From Escherichia coli (GTDB lineage: Bacteria > Pseudomonadota > Gammaproteobacteria > Enterobacterales > Enterobacteriaceae): DNA of 64,000 bases. The stretch lies in the NCBI RefSeq assembly GCF_029227855.1, contig NZ_CP074356.1, one strand, 5' to 3'. Below the pieces are notes generated by a model. The model was not told the origin of the DNA. It did not search any database and saw only the letters and a program-made list of their open reading frames with translations. A program made the position numbers and the translations under genes. Positions 6,566-29,331 of the stretch are shown here, piece by piece. Within the stretch, counting starts at the first letter, position 1. Each line of letters starts with the position of its first letter.

Positions 6566-7057
6566 TCACGCTTTATTTTTGATTTGCTGCTCACGGTGAG
6601 CGGTCTTCGTACTACGCGCCGCCAGCCACAGGCCGCTGTTTTTCATTGCGTAACCAAATATCAACCCGAGCGCCAGCGAAGGTAACACCAGTTTCCAGTC
6701 ACCCTGCCCGGCAAACGTCGCGCATGCGCCTATAAACGTCCCCGGAACAAATGAAAGCAGCAGCTGTTTGGCCTGAATACACATCAGAAACGCGACAATA
6801 CCGGTTATGACATAACCGAGAATTTCCAGATGTGGTGCCAGTGCACTACCGTAAATAATGACCATCGCCCACACCACGCCACTAAGCAGGGTTGCAGCGG
6901 AGATCGCCAGCCCTTTCAGCCCACCTTGCGGGCAGGCAAAGTAGGCCGTACAGCCCAGGAAGCCCGCCCAGCTTAGTAAGCCCAGGGAAACAGCCACCCA
7001 TCCCCAGATACCGGAGAGAATGCCTGTTGTGATTGCAATAGAGAGAAGTATGTTCAT
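6566..7057 (-). CDS. ycdZ: Inner-membrane protein YcdZ
   Basis: ORF 6566..7105; probable start at MNILLSIAIT (163 aa); multiple transmembrane segments. Confidence 0.75.
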   Translation of the reverse strand: MNILLSIAITTGILSGIWGWVAVSLGLLSWAGFLGCTAYFACPQGGLKGLAISAATLLSGVVWAMVIIYGSALAPHLEILGYVITGIVAFLMCIQAKQLLLSFVPGTFIGACATFAGQGDWKLVLPSLALGLIFGYAMKNSGLWLAARSTKTAHREQQIKNKA

Positions 7058-7158
7058 GCCGCGCATGATAGCAGAAAACGCGGCCATGAATGAGATCGAG
7101 CACACATTTTATGCAACAACAAATTATCTGTTGCAGTTATGAGTGATGCAGATCACAT

Positions 7159-7713
7159 TTACTCTTCAGAATCTTCTTCCAGCTCGTCCCACATTGCACT
7201 AATAGCATCGCGGGTTAGCGGTGCCATGGTGCGCCAAAAAGGCGTAGTTGCATGGGCCTCCACTTTACCAAGGAACGCACCACACCAGGGTAACAGATAC
7301 TCACTGAACAGTGTTTCCAGTGCTTCGCTCTCATCTTCCGTTGACTGATCTTCCAGCCAGGAAGCCGCGAGCAGCAATGTGCCGATGTGATCGGCTGGCG
7401 TATCCGCTAATGGCATCCCCCGTTCGGAAAGAAAAGCGCGCACTTCCGCTTCCGTCGCGCCCTCAACCCATGCGCTACGATATGGCGGCACAGCACATTC
7501 ATTGCCGATAAACAACGCATTGTAATCGGCAGAGACTTGCGTCATATCACAGCTTTTCTGCAAACGTGTCAGCAACTCATCCTGCTCCAGTGGCCAGTTC
7601 GCAGCCAGTTTCCCCTCACGAATCAGGGTAAACAGCGGCACCAGTAAAGGATCTTGTGGTTGGCGGTAATAGAGCGAACCCAGCACACGACAGAGGATAG
7701 AAAACTCGTTCAT
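7159..7713 (-). CDS. ycdY: TorD-family redox-enzyme maturation chaperone YcdY
   Basis: 184 aa; position next to ycdX. Confidence 0.8.
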   Translation of the reverse strand: MNEFSILCRVLGSLYYRQPQDPLLVPLFTLIREGKLAANWPLEQDELLTRLQKSCDMTQVSADYNALFIGNECAVPPYRSAWVEGATEAEVRAFLSERGMPLADTPADHIGTLLLAASWLEDQSTEDESEALETLFSEYLLPWCGAFLGKVEAHATTPFWRTMAPLTRDAISAMWDELEEDSEE

Positions 7714-21953: not shown

Positions 21954-22784
21954 TTACGCGGAGCGAGACGCTGTCGCCCCTGCGCGTGGTGGCAGAGCAA
22001 ATGCCACCAGCGCCGGGATGAGATAAATAAACCAGACGGCGACTTCGCTGACACTTGGCGCTTCCTGATAGCCAAAAATCCCTTCCATCAGCGTGCCAAA
22101 CAGCGAGTGAGTTGAGAGCACCGCACTCATATCGAAGGCGATTTCCTGAAAGTGGTTCCACAATCCGGCTTCATGAAATGCGCGAATGGCACCAGCTGCC
22201 AGCCCAGCGGCGACGAAGAGAATAAACAGGCTGGTCCATTTAAAAAATGCACCAAGATTGAGGCGAATACCGCCCCAGTAGAGCAGGAAGCCGAGCACCA
22301 CGGCTGTAGCAAGACCGAGCATTGCACCCAGCGGCGGCCAGATCCCGACATCTTGTTGAAATGCCGCCAGCAGGAAAAAGACCGACTCCAGCCCTTCCCT
22401 TGCAACGGCAAAAAAGACCATCATCACCAGCGCCCAGCCATGATGATTTCCACGCTGCAATGCGCTATCGACTGCCTGCTCCAGTTGTACTTTGACGTTG
22501 CGCGACACTTTGCGCATCCAGAAAACCATCCAGGTAAGGATCACCACGGCGATCACCGCCACGATACCTTCAAACAGTTCCTGTTCTTTTTGCGGAAATT
22601 CGCCGGTGGTTTCGTTAATGAAGATACCCAAGCCCAGGCACAACGCAGCGGCAAGCAACACGCCAATCCACATCACACCAATCCATCGGCCTCGCTGGGT
22701 ACGCTTAAGATAGCTGGCAATCAAACTGACAATCAGCGCGGCTTCAAGTCCTTCGCGCAACATAATGAGAAATGGAACAAACAT
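21954..22784 (-). CDS. efeU: Ferrous iron permease EfeU (Ftr1 family), intact
   Basis: ORF 21954..22793; start at MFVPFLIML (276 aa); two REGLE motifs (MLREGLEAA, VAREGLESV). Confidence 0.9.
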   Translation of the reverse strand: MFVPFLIMLREGLEAALIVSLIASYLKRTQRGRWIGVMWIGVLLAAALCLGLGIFINETTGEFPQKEQELFEGIVAVIAVVILTWMVFWMRKVSRNVKVQLEQAVDSALQRGNHHGWALVMMVFFAVAREGLESVFFLLAAFQQDVGIWPPLGAMLGLATAVVLGFLLYWGGIRLNLGAFFKWTSLFILFVAAGLAAGAIRAFHEAGLWNHFQEIAFDMSAVLSTHSLFGTLMEGIFGYQEAPSVSEVAVWFIYLIPALVAFALPPRAGATASRSA

Positions 22785-22841
22785 GCCACCCACCCTTAAA
22801 CGTTTTTCTGAGTCAATCTATGCAAAGAAAAGTAAATCGCA

Positions 22842-23437: not shown

Positions 23438-24946
<1,509 letters not shown>

Positions 24947-25129
24947 CTAAAGTCTCCAAAAAATTATTATCGGCAATGTCGAAACTTGCCGTTATATCTG
25001 CCACCGGAACGGGGTAGCAGAGTTTATGTTTTACCAGGGCGACCGTATCCTGCCGGAAGCGCTGGTTATTCACAATCGATTTAACACACCATTTACATTA
25101 AATTTTAGTGCTCAGCGACACTATTTTTC

Positions 25130-25350
25130 ATCAGGTTGCACTCTCTCACATTTTTTGCGGTTGCACCTTTCAAAAATGTTAACTGCCGCAGAGAAAAAGT
25201 CTGAGTTATTTTTTTAATCCCTGTCATATCGATTTCTTTTATTAACATTTCATTCATTTTTAAGCTTGCTACGCAGGTCACATTTAACATGGTTGCACAA
25301 AGTTGCAACATCATGGATATTTCACGATAACGTTAAGTTGCACCTTTCAG
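25130..25350. promoter_or_regulatory. put control region with multiple GTTGCA PutA operator motifs
   Basis: GTTGCA occurs at least five times (ggttgcactc, ggttgcacctttc, ggttgcacaaagttgcaacatc, agttgcacctttc) between divergent putP and putA. Confidence 0.8.
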
Positions 25351-25368
25351 AACAACAGGAGTAATGGC

Positions 25369-28300
25369 ATGGGAACCACCACCATGGGGGTTAAGCTGGA
25401 CGACGCGACGCGTGAGCGTATTAAGTCTGCCGCGACACGTATCGATCGCACGCCACACTGGTTAATTAAGCAGGCGATTTTTTCTTATCTTGAACAACTG
25501 GAAAACAGCGATACTCTTCCGGAGCTACCTGCGCTGCTTTCTGGCGCTGCCAATGAGAGCGATGAAGCACCCACTCCGGCAGAGGAACCACACCAGCCAT
25601 TCCTCGACTTTGCCGAGCAAATTTTGCCCCAGTCGGTTTCCCGCGCAGCTATCACCGCTGCCTATCGCCGCCCGGAAACCGAAGCGGTTTCTATGCTGCT
25701 GGAACAAGCCCGCCTGCCGCAGCCAGTTGCTGAACAGGCGCATAAACTGGCATATCAACTGGCCGATAAACTGCGTAATCAAAAAAATGCCAGTGGTCGC
25801 GCAGGTATGGTCCAGGGGTTATTGCAGGAGTTTTCGCTGTCATCGCAGGAAGGCGTGGCGCTGATGTGTCTGGCGGAAGCGTTGTTGCGTATTCCCGACA
25901 AAGCCACCCGTGATGCATTAATTCGCGACAAAATCAGCAACGGTAACTGGCAGTCACACATTGGTCGTAGCCCGTCCCTGTTTGTTAATGCCGCTACCTG
26001 GGGGCTGCTGTTTACCGGCAAACTGGTTTCCACCCATAACGAAGCCAGCCTCTCCCGCTCGCTGAACCGCATTATCGGTAAGAGCGGTGAACCGCTGATC
26101 CGCAAAGGTGTGGATATGGCGATGCGCCTGATGGGCGAGCAGTTCGTCACTGGCGAAACCATCGCGGAAGCGTTAGCCAATGCCCGCAAGCTGGAAGAGA
26201 AAGGTTTCCGTTACTCTTACGATATGCTGGGCGAAGCCGCGCTGACTGCCGCAGATGCACAGGCGTATATGGTTTCCTATCAGCAGGCGATTCACGCCAT
26301 TGGTAAAGCGTCCAATGGTCGTGGTATCTATGAAGGTCCGGGCATTTCAATCAAGCTGTCGGCGTTGCATCCGCGTTACAGTCGCGCCCAGTATGACCGG
26401 GTAATGGAAGAGCTTTACCCACGTCTGAAATCACTCACCCTGCTGGCGCGTCAGTACGATATTGGTATTAACATCGATGCCGAAGAGGCCGATCGTCTGG
26501 AGATCTCCCTCGATCTGCTGGAAAAACTCTGTTTCGAGCCGGAACTGGCAGGCTGGAACGGCATCGGTTTTGTTATTCAGGCTTATCAAAAACGCTGTCC
26601 GTTGGTGATTGATTACCTGATTGATCTCGCCACCCGCAGCCGTCGCCGTCTGATGATTCGCCTGGTGAAAGGCGCGTACTGGGATAGTGAAATCAAGCGC
26701 GCGCAGATGGACGGCCTTGAAGGTTATCCGGTTTATACCCGCAAGGTGTATACCGACGTTTCATATCTCGCCTGTGCGAAAAAGCTGCTGGCGGTGCCGA
26801 ATTTAATCTACCCGCAGTTCGCAACGCATAACGCCCATACGCTGGCGGCAATTTATCAACTGGCGGGTCAAAACTACTACCCGGGTCAGTACGAGTTCCA
26901 GTGCCTGCATGGTATGGGCGAGCCACTGTATGAGCAGGTCACCGGGAAAGTTGCCGACGGCAAACTTAACCGTCCATGTCGTATTTATGCTCCGGTCGGT
27001 ACCCATGAAACGCTGCTGGCGTATCTGGTGCGTCGCCTGCTGGAAAACGGTGCTAACACCTCGTTTGTTAACCGTATTGCTGACACCTCTTTGCCACTGG
27101 ATGAACTGGTTGCCGATCCGGTCACTGCTGTAGAAAAACTGGCGCAACAGGAAGGTCAAACTGGATTACCACATCCGAAAATTCCCCTGCCACGCGATCT
27201 TTACGGTCACGGGCGCGACAACTCGGCAGGGCTGGATCTCGCTAACGAACACCGTCTGGCCTCGCTCTCTTCTGCCCTGCTCAATAGTGCACTGCAAAAA
27301 TGGCAGGCCTTGCCAATGCTGGAACAACCGGTCACGGCTGGTGAGATGTCGCCCGTTATTAACCCGGCAGAGCCGAAAGATATTGTGGGCTATGTGCGCG
27401 AAGCCACGCCGAGTGAAGTAGAACAGGCGCTGGAAAGTGCGGTTAATAACGCGCCAATCTGGTTTGCCACGCCTCCGGCTGAACGCGCGGCGATTTTGCA
27501 TCGCGCTGCCGTGCTGATGGAAAGCCAGATGCAGCAACTGATTGGTATTCTGGTGCGTGAAGCCGGAAAAACCTTCAGTAACGCCATTGCCGAAGTGCGC
27601 GAAGCGGTCGATTTTCTCCACTACTACGCCGGACAGGTGCGGGATGATTTCGCTAACGAAACCCACCGTCCATTAGGGCCTGTGGTGTGTATCAGTCCGT
27701 GGAACTTCCCGCTGGCTATTTTCACCGGGCAGATCGCCGCCGCACTGGCGGCAGGTAACAGCGTGCTGGCAAAACCGGCAGAACAAACGCCGCTGATTGC
27801 CGCGCAAGGGATCGCCATTTTGCTGGAAGCGGGTGTACCGCCAGGCGTGGTGCAATTGCTGCCAGGTCGGGGGGAAACCGTGGGCGCGCAACTGACGGGT
27901 GATGATCGCGTGCACGGGGTGATGTTTACCGGATCAACCGAAGTCGCTACGTTACTGCAACGCAATATCGCCAGCCGCCTGGACGCTCAGGGTCGCCCTA
28001 TTCCGCTCATCGCTGAAACCGGCGGCATGAACGCGATGATTGTCGATTCTTCAGCACTGACCGAACAAGTCGTAATAGATGTGCTGGCCTCGGCGTTCGA
28101 CAGTGCAGGTCAGCGTTGTTCGGCACTGCGCGTGCTGTGCCTGCAAGATGAGATTGCCGACCACACGTTGAAAATGCTGCGCGGCGCAATGGCCGAATGC
28201 CGGATGGGTAATCCGGGTCGCCTGACCACCGATATCGGTCCGGTGATTGATAGCGAAGCGAAAGCCAATATCGAGCGTCATATTCAGACCATGCGTAGCA

Positions 28301-29331
28301 AAGGCCGTCCGGTGTTCCAGGCGGTGCGGGAAAACAGCGAAGATGCCCGTGAATGGCAAAGCGGCACCTTTGTCGCCCCGACGCTGATCGAACTGGATGA
28401 CTTTGCCGAATTGCAAAAAGAGGTCTTTGGTCCGGTGCTGCATGTGGTGCGTTACAACCGTAACCAGCTGCCGGAGCTGATCGAGCAGATTAACGCTTCC
28501 GGCTATGGTCTGACGCTTGGCGTTCATACGCGTATTGATGAAACCATCGCCCAGGTCACTGGCTCGGCCCATGTCGGTAACCTGTACGTTAACCGTAATA
28601 TGGTGGGCGCAGTGGTCGGGGTGCAGCCGTTCGGCGGCGAAGGGTTGTCCGGTACCGGGCCGAAAGCAGGCGGTCCGCTCTATCTCTACCGTCTGCTGGC
28701 GAATCGCCCGGAAAGTGCGCTGGCAGTGACGCTCGCGCGTCAGGATGCAGAGTATCCGGTCGATGCGCAGTTGAAAGCCGCATTGACTCAGCCGCTAAAT
28801 GCACTGCGGGAATGGGCGGCAAACCGTCCAGAATTGCAGGCGTTATGTACGCAATATGGCGAGCTGGCGCAGGCAGGAACACAGCGATTGCTGCCAGGGC
28901 CGACGGGTGAACGCAACACCTGGACGCTGCTGCCGCGCGAGCGCGTGTTGTGTATTGCGGATGATGAGCAGGATGCGCTGACTCAGCTCGCCGCCGTGCT
29001 GGCGGTGGGCAGCCAGGTGCTGTGGCCGGATGACGCGCTGCATCGTCAGTTAGTGAAGGCATTGCCATCGGCAGTCAGCGAACGTATTCAACTGGCGAAA
29101 GCGGAAAATATAACCGCTCAACCGTTTGATGCGGTGATCTTCCACGGTGATTCGGATCAGCTTCGCGCATTGTGTGAAGCCGTTGCCGCGCGGGATGGCG
29201 CAATTGTTTCGGTGCAAGGTTTTGCCCGTGGCGAAAACAATATCCTTCTGGAACGGCTGTATATCGAACGCTCGCTGAGTGTGAATACCGCTGCCGCTGG
29301 CGGTAACGCCAGTTTAATGACGATCGGTTAA
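25369..29331 (+). CDS. putA: Bifunctional proline dehydrogenase / P5C dehydrogenase and transcriptional repressor PutA
   Basis: ORF 25303..29331; start at MGTTTMGVKLDDATRERIKSAA (1320 aa); RHH DNA-binding N-terminus, PRODH and aldehyde dehydrogenase domains. Confidence 0.95.
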   Translation: MGTTTMGVKLDDATRERIKSAATRIDRTPHWLIKQAIFSYLEQLENSDTLPELPALLSGAANESDEAPTPAEEPHQPFLDFAEQILPQSVSRAAITAAYRRPETEAVSMLLEQARLPQPVAEQAHKLAYQLADKLRNQKNASGRAGMVQGLLQEFSLSSQEGVALMCLAEALLRIPDKATRDALIRDKISNGNWQSHIGRSPSLFVNAATWGLLFTGKLVSTHNEASLSRSLNRIIGKSGEPLIRKGVDMAMRLMGEQFVTGETIAEALANARKLEEKGFRYSYDMLGEAALTAADAQAYMVSYQQAIHAIGKASNGRGIYEGPGISIKLSALHPRYSRAQYDRVMEELYPRLKSLTLLARQYDIGINIDAEEADRLEISLDLLEKLCFEPELAGWNGIGFVIQAYQKRCPLVIDYLIDLATRSRRRLMIRLVKGAYWDSEIKRAQMDGLEGYPVYTRKVYTDVSYLACAKKLLAVPNLIYPQFATHNAHTLAAIYQLAGQNYYPGQYEFQCLHGMGEPLYEQVTGKVADGKLNRPCRIYAPVGTHETLLAYLVRRLLENGANTSFVNRIADTSLPLDELVADPVTAVEKLAQQEGQTGLPHPKIPLPRDLYGHGRDNSAGLDLANEHRLASLSSALLNSALQKWQALPMLEQPVTAGEMSPVINPAEPKDIVGYVREATPSEVEQALESAVNNAPIWFATPPAERAAILHRAAVLMESQMQQLIGILVREAGKTFSNAIAEVREAVDFLHYYAGQVRDDFANETHRPLGPVVCISPWNFPLAIFTGQIAAALAAGNSVLAKPAEQTPLIAAQGIAILLEAGVPPGVVQLLPGRGETVGAQLTGDDRVHGVMFTGSTEVATLLQRNIASRLDAQGRPIPLIAETGGMNAMIVDSSALTEQVVIDVLASAFDSAGQRCSALRVLCLQDEIADHTLKMLRGAMAECRMGNPGRLTTDIGPVIDSEAKANIERHIQTMRSKGRPVFQAVRENSEDAREWQSGTFVAPTLIELDDFAELQKEVFGPVLHVVRYNRNQLPELIEQINASGYGLTLGVHTRIDETIAQVTGSAHVGNLYVNRNMVGAVVGVQPFGGEGLSGTGPKAGGPLYLYRLLANRPESALAVTLARQDAEYPVDAQLKAALTQPLNALREWAANRPELQALCTQYGELAQAGTQRLLPGPTGERNTWTLLPRERVLCIADDEQDALTQLAAVLAVGSQVLWPDDALHRQLVKALPSAVSERIQLAKAENITAQPFDAVIFHGDSDQLRALCEAVAARDGAIVSVQGFARGENNILLERLYIERSLSVNTAAAGGNASLMTIG

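What the first reader, a model, noticed from the sequence alone, without database searches (positions are those of the whole stretch)
25130..25350. Dense GTTGCA operator array in the putP-putA control region
At least five GTTGCA motifs, including a back-to-back pair (ggttgcacaaagttgcaac), lie in the 420-bp divergent region. This matches the PutA autoregulatory operator arrangement and confirms the locus is organised canonically.
Basis: partly seen in the sequence, partly recalled or inferred. Interest (0 to 1): 0.15.

Follow-up and report, generated by a model that had tools for sequence, protein, structure and literature searches.

The report
PutA repressor sites between putP and putA
The five GTTGCA motifs are real and are the well-known docking sites through which the E. 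coli proline enzyme PutA switches off its own gene and the proline transporter gene, so this is an ordinary, already described control region.

Summary
Observation confirmed. The window is E. coli chromosome. putP (23438-24946, -) and putA (25369-29331, +) diverge from a 422-bp spacer. That spacer carries GTTGCA on the putA-sense strand at 25135, 25160, 25292, 25302 and 25337, plus one reverse hit at 25304 because site 4 reads GTTGCAAC. About 0.3 hits are expected by chance (Poisson P about 1.6e-5).

[quoted passage not shown] The five sites sit at the same positions in K-12, where the operators were defined.

In 79 distinct putP-putA spacers from Enterobacteriaceae, sites 1, 2 and 4 are invariant and site 3 is kept in 78. 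Their spacing is rigid: 25 bp for O1-O2 and 10 bp for O3-O4. The spacer as a whole is only 66% identical.

Site 5 is the exception. It is fixed in E. coli (5373 of 5426 complete genomes) but absent outside the E. coli clade, where other genera carry differently placed extra sites.

Site 3 overlaps an inferred putA -35, site 4 the promoter spacer, and site 5 the start of the transcript, which fits repression by promoter occlusion.

Verdict: already known, canonical, low interest.

The parts
23438..24946 (-). putP, sodium/proline symporter (502 aa), one of the two repressed genes
   Evidence: ORF. Pfam SSF, E = 2.3e-149. Annotated putP in K-12 and in strain 7/2.
24947..25368 (.). put control region: 422-bp divergent spacer, 38.8% G+C against 50.4% for the window
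   Evidence: Present in 5420 of 5426 complete E. coli genomes, at >=99% identity in 5335.
25135..25140 (+). Operator 1 (GTTGCA), putP-proximal pair; conserved footprint AGGTTGCACT at 25133-25142
   Evidence: Exact in 79 of 79 distinct enterobacterial spacers, with 100% conserved flanks AG...CT.
25160..25165 (+). Operator 2 (GTTGCA); context GCGGTTGCACCTTT at 25157-25170. From my memory, this is the sequence of the oligonucleotide co-crystallised with PutA52 (PDB 2RBF).
   Evidence: Exact in 79 of 79. It lies 25 bp from operator 1 in 77 of 78 species.
25292..25297 (+). Operator 3 (GTTGCA); overlaps the inferred putA -35 hexamer TTGCAC (25293-25298)
   Evidence: Exact in 78 of 79 (E. whittamii has GTTGCG). 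Part of the 21-bp conserved block 25291-25311 (>=98% in every column).
25302..25309 (+). Operator 4 (GTTGCA, extended to the perfect palindrome GTTGCAAC); 10 bp from operator 3, inside the inferred putA promoter spacer
   Evidence: Exact in 79 of 79. The 10-bp offset from operator 3 is found in all species.
25337..25342 (+). Operator 5 (GTTGCA); about +9 to +14 of the inferred putA transcript, 32 bp before the ATG. Specific to the E. coli clade.
   Evidence: Only 5 of 79 spacers have it (E. coli, cryptic Escherichia clades, E. whittamii), and column identity is 31%. The 31-mer around it is exact in 5373 of 5426 complete E. coli genomes.
25293..25321 (+). Inferred putA promoter: -35 TTGCAC (25293-25298), 17-bp spacer, -10 GATATT (25316-25321)
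   Evidence: Inference from sequence. A relaxed scan picks GATATT with an upstream hexamer. GATATT is highly conserved and sits at a fixed 14 bp after the start of operator 4 in 65 of 78 species (the other 13 were scored at 10 bp by a loose GATA string search). No transcription start data could be consulted.
25369..29331 (+). putA, trifunctional repressor / proline dehydrogenase / P5C dehydrogenase (1320 aa). The RHH DNA-binding domain is residues 1-52 (25369-25524).
   Evidence: Pfam PutA_1st (E = 1.2e-21), Pro_dh-DNA_bdg, Pro_dh and Aldedh. Residues 1-52 are 100% identical to PDB 2GPE and 2RBF.

Best explanation
These are the PutA operators of the E. coli proline-utilisation (put) control region.

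When proline is scarce, the PutA dimer stays in the cytoplasm. Its single N-terminal ribbon-helix-helix module inserts a two-stranded beta-sheet into the major groove at each GTTGCA site, roughly one dimer per 9-bp site.

Sites 3, 4 and 5 cover the -35, the spacer and the first bases of the putA transcription unit, and so occlude RNA polymerase. Sites 1 and 2, 25 bp apart and about 190-220 bp upstream of the putP start codon, repress putP.

When proline is available it reduces the FAD of PutA. PutA then moves to the membrane to work as an enzyme, leaves the DNA, and both genes are derepressed.

Shown here: the motif array and its statistical enrichment; identity of the sites with K-12; identity of the RHH domain with the crystallised one; strong purifying selection on sites 1-4 and on their spacing.

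Taken from the literature: binding, repression and the functional switch.

Inferred: the promoter positions relative to the sites.
For: - Motif positions and enrichment.
- Gene identities and the RHH domain.
- K-12 carries the same five sites, and the strain SNPs lie outside them.
- Conservation: sites 1, 2 and 4 are exact in 79 of 79 and site 3 in 78 of 79 distinct spacers from about 25 genera, while the spacer averages 66% identity to the window. 22 of the 30 hexamer windows that are >=98% conserved in the spacer belong to the operators. O1-O2 spacing is 25 bp in 77 of 78 species and O3-O4 spacing is 10 bp in all.
- The conserved flanks extend to 8-10 bp per isolated site, matching a roughly 9-bp contact.
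- Plesiomonas keeps O1, O2 and O4 with the same spacing.
- An Azospirillum PutA without an RHH domain has no GTTGCA in 5.8 kb.
- Literature: PutA binds only the putA/putP spacer in genomic SELEX (PMC8249747). EcPutA shifts the 420-bp put control DNA with Kd about 45 nM (PMC5293562). The functional switch is described in PMC5293562 and PMC5879082.
Against: - The primary mapping and crystal paper (Zhou et al. 2008) could not be read here. The statement that exactly these five motifs were shown by gel shift to be operators, and the split of three sites for putA and two for putP, rest on my memory of it.
- Site 5 is not conserved outside the E. coli clade, so conservation gives no support for that one site.
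- The promoter placement is inferred. The strict consensus scan found no putA promoter, and the putP promoter(s) that sites 1 and 2 act on could not be located from sequence.
- No binding data exist for this particular strain.
Confidence: 0.95

Rival explanations
1. The motif cluster is a chance product of an AT-rich spacer and has no function.
For: GTTGCA is not over-represented in the 64-kb window as a whole: 51 hits against 54.9 in shuffles. Another stretch, 6891-7252 in the ycdZ/ycdY coding sequence, has 4 hits.
Against: Six hits were found where 0.30 are expected (P about 1e-6). None of 20,000 shuffles reached 5. Four hexamers and their mutual spacing are invariant across 79 spacers that are otherwise 66% identical.
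Confidence: 0.01
2. The hexamers are half-sites for CytR, whose optimal site is a pair of GTTGCATT octamers, working together with CRP. They would not be PutA sites.
For: RegulonDB models the CytR site as octamer repeats GTTGCATT in direct or inverted orientation (PMC3013702). The spacer also contains CRP-like half-sites TCACATTT.
Against: None of the five sites is followed by TT. The flanks are CT, CC, CA, AC and CC, and C/A at that position is 100% conserved. The pair spacings of 25 and 10 bp (start to start) do not match the preferred 2-bp gap between octamers. I know of no put gene in the CytR regulon (own knowledge). PutA itself selects this spacer in SELEX.
Confidence: 0.02
3. The conserved TTGCA(C/A) blocks are conserved mainly because they are -35-like promoter hexamers (TTGACA-like) of the several put promoters. 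On this reading, operator function is secondary.
For: TTGCAC at 25293-25298 lies 17 bp upstream of the conserved GATATT and is the best candidate putA -35.
Against: Invariance covers the leading G and 1-3 flanking bases, and is identical in form at four places. Sites 3 and 4 are 10 bp apart and cannot both be -35 elements of one promoter. Sites 1 and 2 are on the putA-sense strand, the wrong strand for putP -35 elements. A dual role for site 3 fits repression by occlusion and does not compete with it.
Confidence: 0.02

Closest known systems
E. coli K-12 put control region with five PutA operators (Zhou et al. 2008, J Mol Biol 381:174; PDB 2RBF = PutA52 bound to operator 2)
   Same: Same species and same locus. 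The spacer is 99.3% identical (3 SNPs in 423 bp). The five GTTGCA are at identical positions, and the operator-2 context GCGGTTGCACCTTT is present once at 25157. The RHH domain is 100% identical to the crystallised protein.
   Different: Three SNPs (25017, 25276, 25349), all outside the hexamers and outside the roughly 9-bp contacts. Nothing else differs.
Salmonella enterica and other enterobacterial put control regions
   Same: Divergent putP-putA. Operators 1-4 have identical sequence and spacing, and the -10 GATATT is conserved.
   Different: They lack operator 5. Salmonella, Kluyvera and E. albertii instead have an inverted TGCAAC about 101-105 bp upstream of putA, where E. coli reads TGCTAC. 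Pluralibacter and relatives have one at about -42, and some Enterobacter and Pseudocitrobacter have a direct copy at about -103.
Other ribbon-helix-helix repressors with tandem operator sub-sites (Arc, MetJ, CopG, ArtA)
   Same: Recognition is by a beta-sheet in the major groove. Short sub-sites are repeated about one helical turn apart, as with operators 3 and 4 at 10 bp. PMC2777438 discusses PutA among RHH proteins.
   Different: PutA is described as binding as a single dimer per site rather than as a cooperative dimer of dimers (PMC2777438). Its RHH is fused to a 1320-aa enzyme. Release from DNA is by relocation to the membrane, not by a co-repressor.
CytR operators (GTTGCATT octamers)
   Same: They share the hexamer GTTGCA (PMC3013702).
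   Different: Different flanking bases, different spacing, a different protein family (LacI) and a dependence on CRP. Membership was tested and not met.

Membership tests
PutA (trifunctional, RHH-bearing) operator array of the put control region | Divergently transcribed putP and putA separated by a spacer of about 420 bp | tested here: met
   putP is at 23438-24946 (-), putA at 25369-29331 (+), and the spacer is 422 bp.
PutA (trifunctional, RHH-bearing) operator array of the put control region | [quoted passage not shown] | tested here: met
   Pfam PF21775 PutA_1st, E = 1.2e-21. Residues 1-52 are 100% identical to PDB 2GPE and 2RBF.
PutA (trifunctional, RHH-bearing) operator array of the put control region | Several copies of GTTGCA in the spacer, above chance | tested here: met
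   Five direct copies and one overlapping inverted copy against 0.30 expected, P about 1e-5 to 1e-6.
PutA (trifunctional, RHH-bearing) operator array of the put control region | Sites identical to those of the strain in which the operators were mapped (K-12) | tested here: met
   Same five positions in K-12 AG100. The SNPs lie outside the sites.
PutA (trifunctional, RHH-bearing) operator array of the put control region | Sites under purifying selection in relatives that keep the RHH domain | tested here: met
   Operators 1-4 are exact in 78-79 of 79 spacers. Operator 5 fails this test outside the E. coli clade but is fixed within E. coli.
PutA (trifunctional, RHH-bearing) operator array of the put control region | Physical binding of PutA to the hexamers, and loss of repression when they are mutated | not testable with these tools
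   Literature only: SELEX peak on the spacer (PMC8249747); EMSA on put control DNA (PMC5293562). The site-resolved data of Zhou et al. 2008 could not be read.
CytR operator | Octamer GTTGCATT repeats, direct or inverted, preferably 2 bp apart | tested here: not met
   No site is followed by TT. Start-to-start spacings are 25, 132, 10 and 35 bp.
CRP site (TGTGA-N6-TCACA) overlapping operator 1 | At least 7 of 10 matches to the two pentamers | tested here: inconclusive
   GTTGCACTCTCTCACA at 25135 has 3 mismatches. TGCTACGCAGGTCACA at 25267 has 2. The right halves TCACATTT are conserved. No binding data were consulted.

The most novel reading that the evidence does not exclude
The textbook five-operator array may not be the conserved unit. 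The ancestral enterobacterial array would be two rigid pairs: O1-O2 at 25 bp and O3-O4 at 10 bp.

The putA-proximal fifth operator would be a recent gain, fixed in the E. coli clade. It coincides with decay of an inverted site about 100 bp upstream (TGCAAC in E. albertii and Salmonella, TGCTAC in E. coli). Other genera have placed their extra site elsewhere.

On this reading the auxiliary PutA operator turns over between lineages and may set lineage-specific tightness of putA autorepression.
Probability: 0.45. Interest if true: 0.25.

Novelty: already known. Interest (0 to 1): 0.08.

Why it matters
It matters little as a discovery, because this is a textbook autoregulatory region of E. coli. 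Confirming it is useful as an anchor: it fixes the identity, orientation and intactness of the put locus in this window.

The comparative data add a small point of interest. Four operators and their spacings are frozen across the family, whereas the fifth site is E. coli specific. From my memory of Zhou et al. 2008, that fifth site is one of the three reported as needed for putA repression in K-12. Results on put repression from K-12 may therefore not transfer quantitatively to Salmonella, Klebsiella or Enterobacter.

Tried and rejected
- **Primary papers not held.** I tried to read Zhou et al. 2008 (PMID 18586269, PMC2665032) and six related papers from the Becker/Tanner groups (PMC2664619, PMC3715380, PMC2242416, PMC5650515, PMC3234807, PMC2666929, PMC1390768). 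None is held. A whole-word search for PutA plus GTTGCA finds no paper in the searchable library. An 'anywhere' search was useless because 'puta' matches 'putative'.
- **Start-site data.** A dRNA-seq paper recalled as PMC4288677 is not held. Promoter positions therefore remain inferred.
- **RNA families.** Rfam at permissive threshold over 24850-25450 gave no match, so there is no known RNA element in the spacer.
- **Strict promoter scan.** It gave one hit on the putP strand (-35 ATGAAA 25131..25126, -10 TAAAAT 25107..25102), no more than shuffles give, and in a poorly conserved stretch. It is not relied on.
- **The annotated 69-aa 'hypothetical protein' inside the spacer** (25105-25314, -; WP_000979516.1). 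It has no Pfam match. Outside Escherichia and Citrobacter it breaks into separate pieces, with similarity only where it overlaps the operators. I rejected it as a gene.
- **DNA looping with fixed helical phasing between the two operator pairs.** The O2-O3 distance varies from 130 to 136 bp among species, more than half a helical turn. Strict phasing is therefore not conserved, and the idea is not supported, though it is not excluded for E. coli itself.
- **CytR, chance and promoter-hexamer readings.** See the rival explanations.
- **Papers on putA/putP mutations** in long-term stationary phase and in infections (PMC7858067, PMC7845604). The mutations reported are in the coding sequences, not the operators, so they are not informative here.

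Full report
**What is there.** Window 24947-25368 is the 422-bp spacer between two divergent genes. One ORF runs on the - strand (23438-24946, 502 aa) and one on the + strand (ATG at 25369, stop at 29331, 1320 aa). The first is a sodium:solute symporter. The second has the domain series PutA_1st (RHH), PRODH, Pro_dh-DNA_bdg, Pro_dh and Aldedh.

The spacer is 100% identical to E. coli strain 7/2. It is present in 5420 of 5426 complete E. coli genomes, at >=99% identity in 5335 of them. RefSeq annotates the neighbours as putP and putA, flanked by efeUOB/phoH on one side and rutR/rutA-G on the other. Over 39 kb the window is 98.6% identical to strain 7/2, so it comes from a different E. coli strain.

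**The observation.** GTTGCA is found on the + strand (the putA-sense strand) at 25135, 25160, 25292, 25302 and 25337. It is found once on the - strand at 25304, because the fourth site reads GTTGCAAC, a perfect 8-bp palindrome. The quoted 'back-to-back pair' ggttgcacaaagttgcaac is at 25291-25309.

The hexamer is not enriched in the window overall: 51 hits against a shuffle mean of 54.9. Six of the 51 hits sit in this single 422-bp stretch, where 0.30 are expected. This gives Poisson P(>=5) = 1.6e-5 and P(>=6) = 7.7e-7, and none of 20,000 shuffles of the spacer reached 5. GGTTGCAC occurs three times in 64 kb, all three in the spacer. The only corrections are 422 rather than 420 bp, and exactly five independent sites.

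**Is it functional? Comparative test.** A scan of one genome per species with the first 200 residues of PutA returned 80 loci from about 25 enterobacterial genera. 78 of them have a divergent putP, which gives 79 distinct spacers when the window is included.

- By plain string search, sites 1, 2 and 4 are exact in 79 of 79 and site 3 in 78 of 79. The exception is E. whittamii, which has GTTGCG.
- Identity of the spacer columns to the window averages 66%.
- Only five clusters of hexamer windows that are >=98% conserved exist in the spacer, and three of them are the operators: AGGTTGCACT (25133-25142), GTTGCACC (25160-25167) and the 21-bp block GGTTGCACAAAGTTGCAACAT (25291-25311). These account for 22 of 30 such hexamer windows.
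- Spacing is also frozen. O1-O2 is 25 bp in 77 of 78 species (26 in one) and O3-O4 is 10 bp in all. O2-O3 drifts between 130 and 136 bp.
- The conserved flanks give isolated sites a footprint of 8-10 bp. That agrees with the roughly 9-bp contact I recall from the PutA52-operator 2 crystal structure.

Two further comparisons fit. Plesiomonas shigelloides, a deeper branch with 79.5% PutA identity, keeps O1 and O2 25 bp apart, an exact O4, a degenerate O3 (GCTGCA) and the GATATT -10. An Azospirillum PutA that lacks the RHH domain has no GTTGCA anywhere in 5.8 kb. That is a single, GC-rich negative control.

**The fifth site is different.** O5 (25337) is present only in E. coli, the cryptic Escherichia clades and E. 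whittamii, 5 of 79 spacers. Column identity there is 31%, below the spacer average. Within E. coli it is fixed: the 31-mer around it is exact in 5373 of 5426 complete genomes.

Other genera carry an extra site elsewhere:
- an inverted TGCAAC at alignment position 25267 (Salmonella, Kluyvera, E. albertii and others; 10 exact, 36 with one mismatch; E. coli reads TGCTAC);
- a direct copy at 25265 (4 species);
- an inverted copy at 25326 (5 species, Pluralibacter and relatives).

This looks like turnover of an auxiliary operator around a fixed core of two pairs. The 25267 element also forms the left half of a CRP-like 16-mer, TGCTACGCAGGTCACA (2 mismatches of 10). Its conservation may therefore have another cause.

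**Who binds.** PutA residues 1-52 are 100% identical to PDB chains 2GPE_A and 2RBF_A, and to the N-terminus of 4O8A.
- Genomic SELEX with purified PutA gives a single peak in the E. coli K-12 genome, on the putA/putP spacer. The authors state that without proline PutA binds operator sequences there and represses transcription (PMC8249747).
- EcPutA, and a chimera carrying only its RHH domain, shift the 420-bp put control DNA, with Kd values of 45 and 58 nM (PMC5293562).
- K-12 AG100 carries the five hexamers at the same positions. The three SNPs that separate it from this window (25017, 25276, 25349) are outside them.

From my own knowledge of Zhou et al. 2008 (J Mol Biol 381:174), which is not held in the library:
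- five operators, each containing GTTGCA, were mapped by gel shift;
- three are needed for putA repression and two for putP repression;
- PutA52 was crystallised on operator 2, and the sequence GCGGTTGCACCTTT occurs once in the window, at 25157;
- flanking bases modulate affinity through Lys9.

**How it most likely works.** The best candidate putA promoter is -35 TTGCAC (25293-25298, inside O3), a 17-bp spacer, and -10 GATATT (25316-25321). GATATT is highly conserved and lies a fixed 14 bp after the start of O4 in 65 of 78 species; the other 13 were scored at 10 bp by a loose GATA string search. That puts the start near 25328 and O5 at about +9 to +14. O3, O4 and O5 would thus cover the -35, the spacer and the initial transcribed region, which is classic occlusion. 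This placement is inferred, since no start-site data could be read.

O1 and O2 lie 189-219 bp upstream of the putP start codon. I could not place the putP promoter they act on from sequence alone. The only consensus-scan hit (-10 TAAAAT at 25107..25102) lies in a poorly conserved stretch.

All five sites have the same polarity, and each is a partial version of the palindrome GTTGCAAC (O4 8/8; O2 and O5 7/8; O1 and O3 6/8). That suits a two-fold symmetric RHH dimer. This point is sequence observation plus inference.

**Rivals.**
- Chance is excluded by enrichment and conservation.
- CytR recognises GTTGCATT octamers (PMC3013702). None of the five sites is followed by TT, and the conserved next base is C or A.
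- The view that the blocks are merely -35 hexamers fails for O1 and O2 (wrong strand for putP) and for O3 and O4 together (10 bp apart).
- The PGAP 'hypothetical protein' of 69 aa inside the spacer (25105-25314, -) has no family and is not maintained as an ORF outside Escherichia and Citrobacter. Its apparent conservation is that of the operators read in frame.

**Comparison with the known, and verdict.** This is the E. coli put control region itself, not a relative of it. Every membership feature that can be tested in silico is met. Binding itself rests on the literature. Novelty: already known. Interest is low (0.08). The only addition is comparative: a frozen four-site core with rigid 25-bp and 10-bp spacings, and an E. 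coli-specific fifth site.

Noticed in passing
window 25070-25097 (- strand): A conserved block in the putP-proximal half reads, on the putP-sense strand, TGTAA (25097..25093), TGTTA (25086..25082) and TGTGA (25074..25070). The centre-to-centre distances are 11 bp and then 12 bp. This matches the ArcA-P footprint reported at putP P1, where DR1 and DR2 are protected and a predicted DR3 at 12-bp spacing is not (PMC3798270). That the ArcA repeat element is TGTTA-like is from my own knowledge. The invariant TTTAACAC (25080-25087) would then be ArcA DR2.
   Followed up: partly
window 25081, 25177 (-), 25242, 25284: TTAACA/TGTTAA occurs four times in the 422-bp spacer (0.34 expected), each time in highly conserved columns. 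One copy is explained by the ArcA box above. The other three (25177-25182, 25242-25247, 25284-25289) are unexplained. They could be further ArcA-type half-sites or promoter hexamers.
   Followed up: partly
window 25004-25011 and 25036-25062: An invariant CCGGAACG and an 80-99% conserved GC-rich block (GCGACCGTATCCTGCCGGAAGCG) lie in the presumed putP leader or promoter-proximal region, 60-115 bp upstream of the putP start codon. There is no Rfam match. Function unknown.
   Followed up: no
window 25146-25153 and 25278-25285: There are two conserved copies of TCACATTT, which resembles a CRP half-site. One begins 11 bp after the start of operator 1. The other forms the 16-mer TGCTACGCAGGTCACA (2 mismatches to TGTGA-N6-TCACA) just upstream of operator 3. 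PutA and CRP may compete at operator 1. This was not tested.
   Followed up: partly
window 25105-25314 (- strand): RefSeq/PGAP annotates a 69-aa hypothetical protein (WP_000979516.1) entirely inside the put control region, spanning operators 1-4. It has no Pfam family and is not conserved as an ORF outside Escherichia and Citrobacter. It is probably a spurious gene call.
   Followed up: yes
window 6891-7252: This is the second densest GTTGCA cluster in the window: 4 hits in 362 bp, inside the ycdZ/ycdY coding sequences and their short spacer. It is probably chance, and conservation was not examined.
   Followed up: no
window 21954-22793 (- strand) and 41556-41648: efeU is an intact ORF here (279 aa), whereas it is frameshifted in K-12. 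The window lacks the IS1397 insertion that strain 7/2 carries between cbpM and torD.
   Followed up: partly
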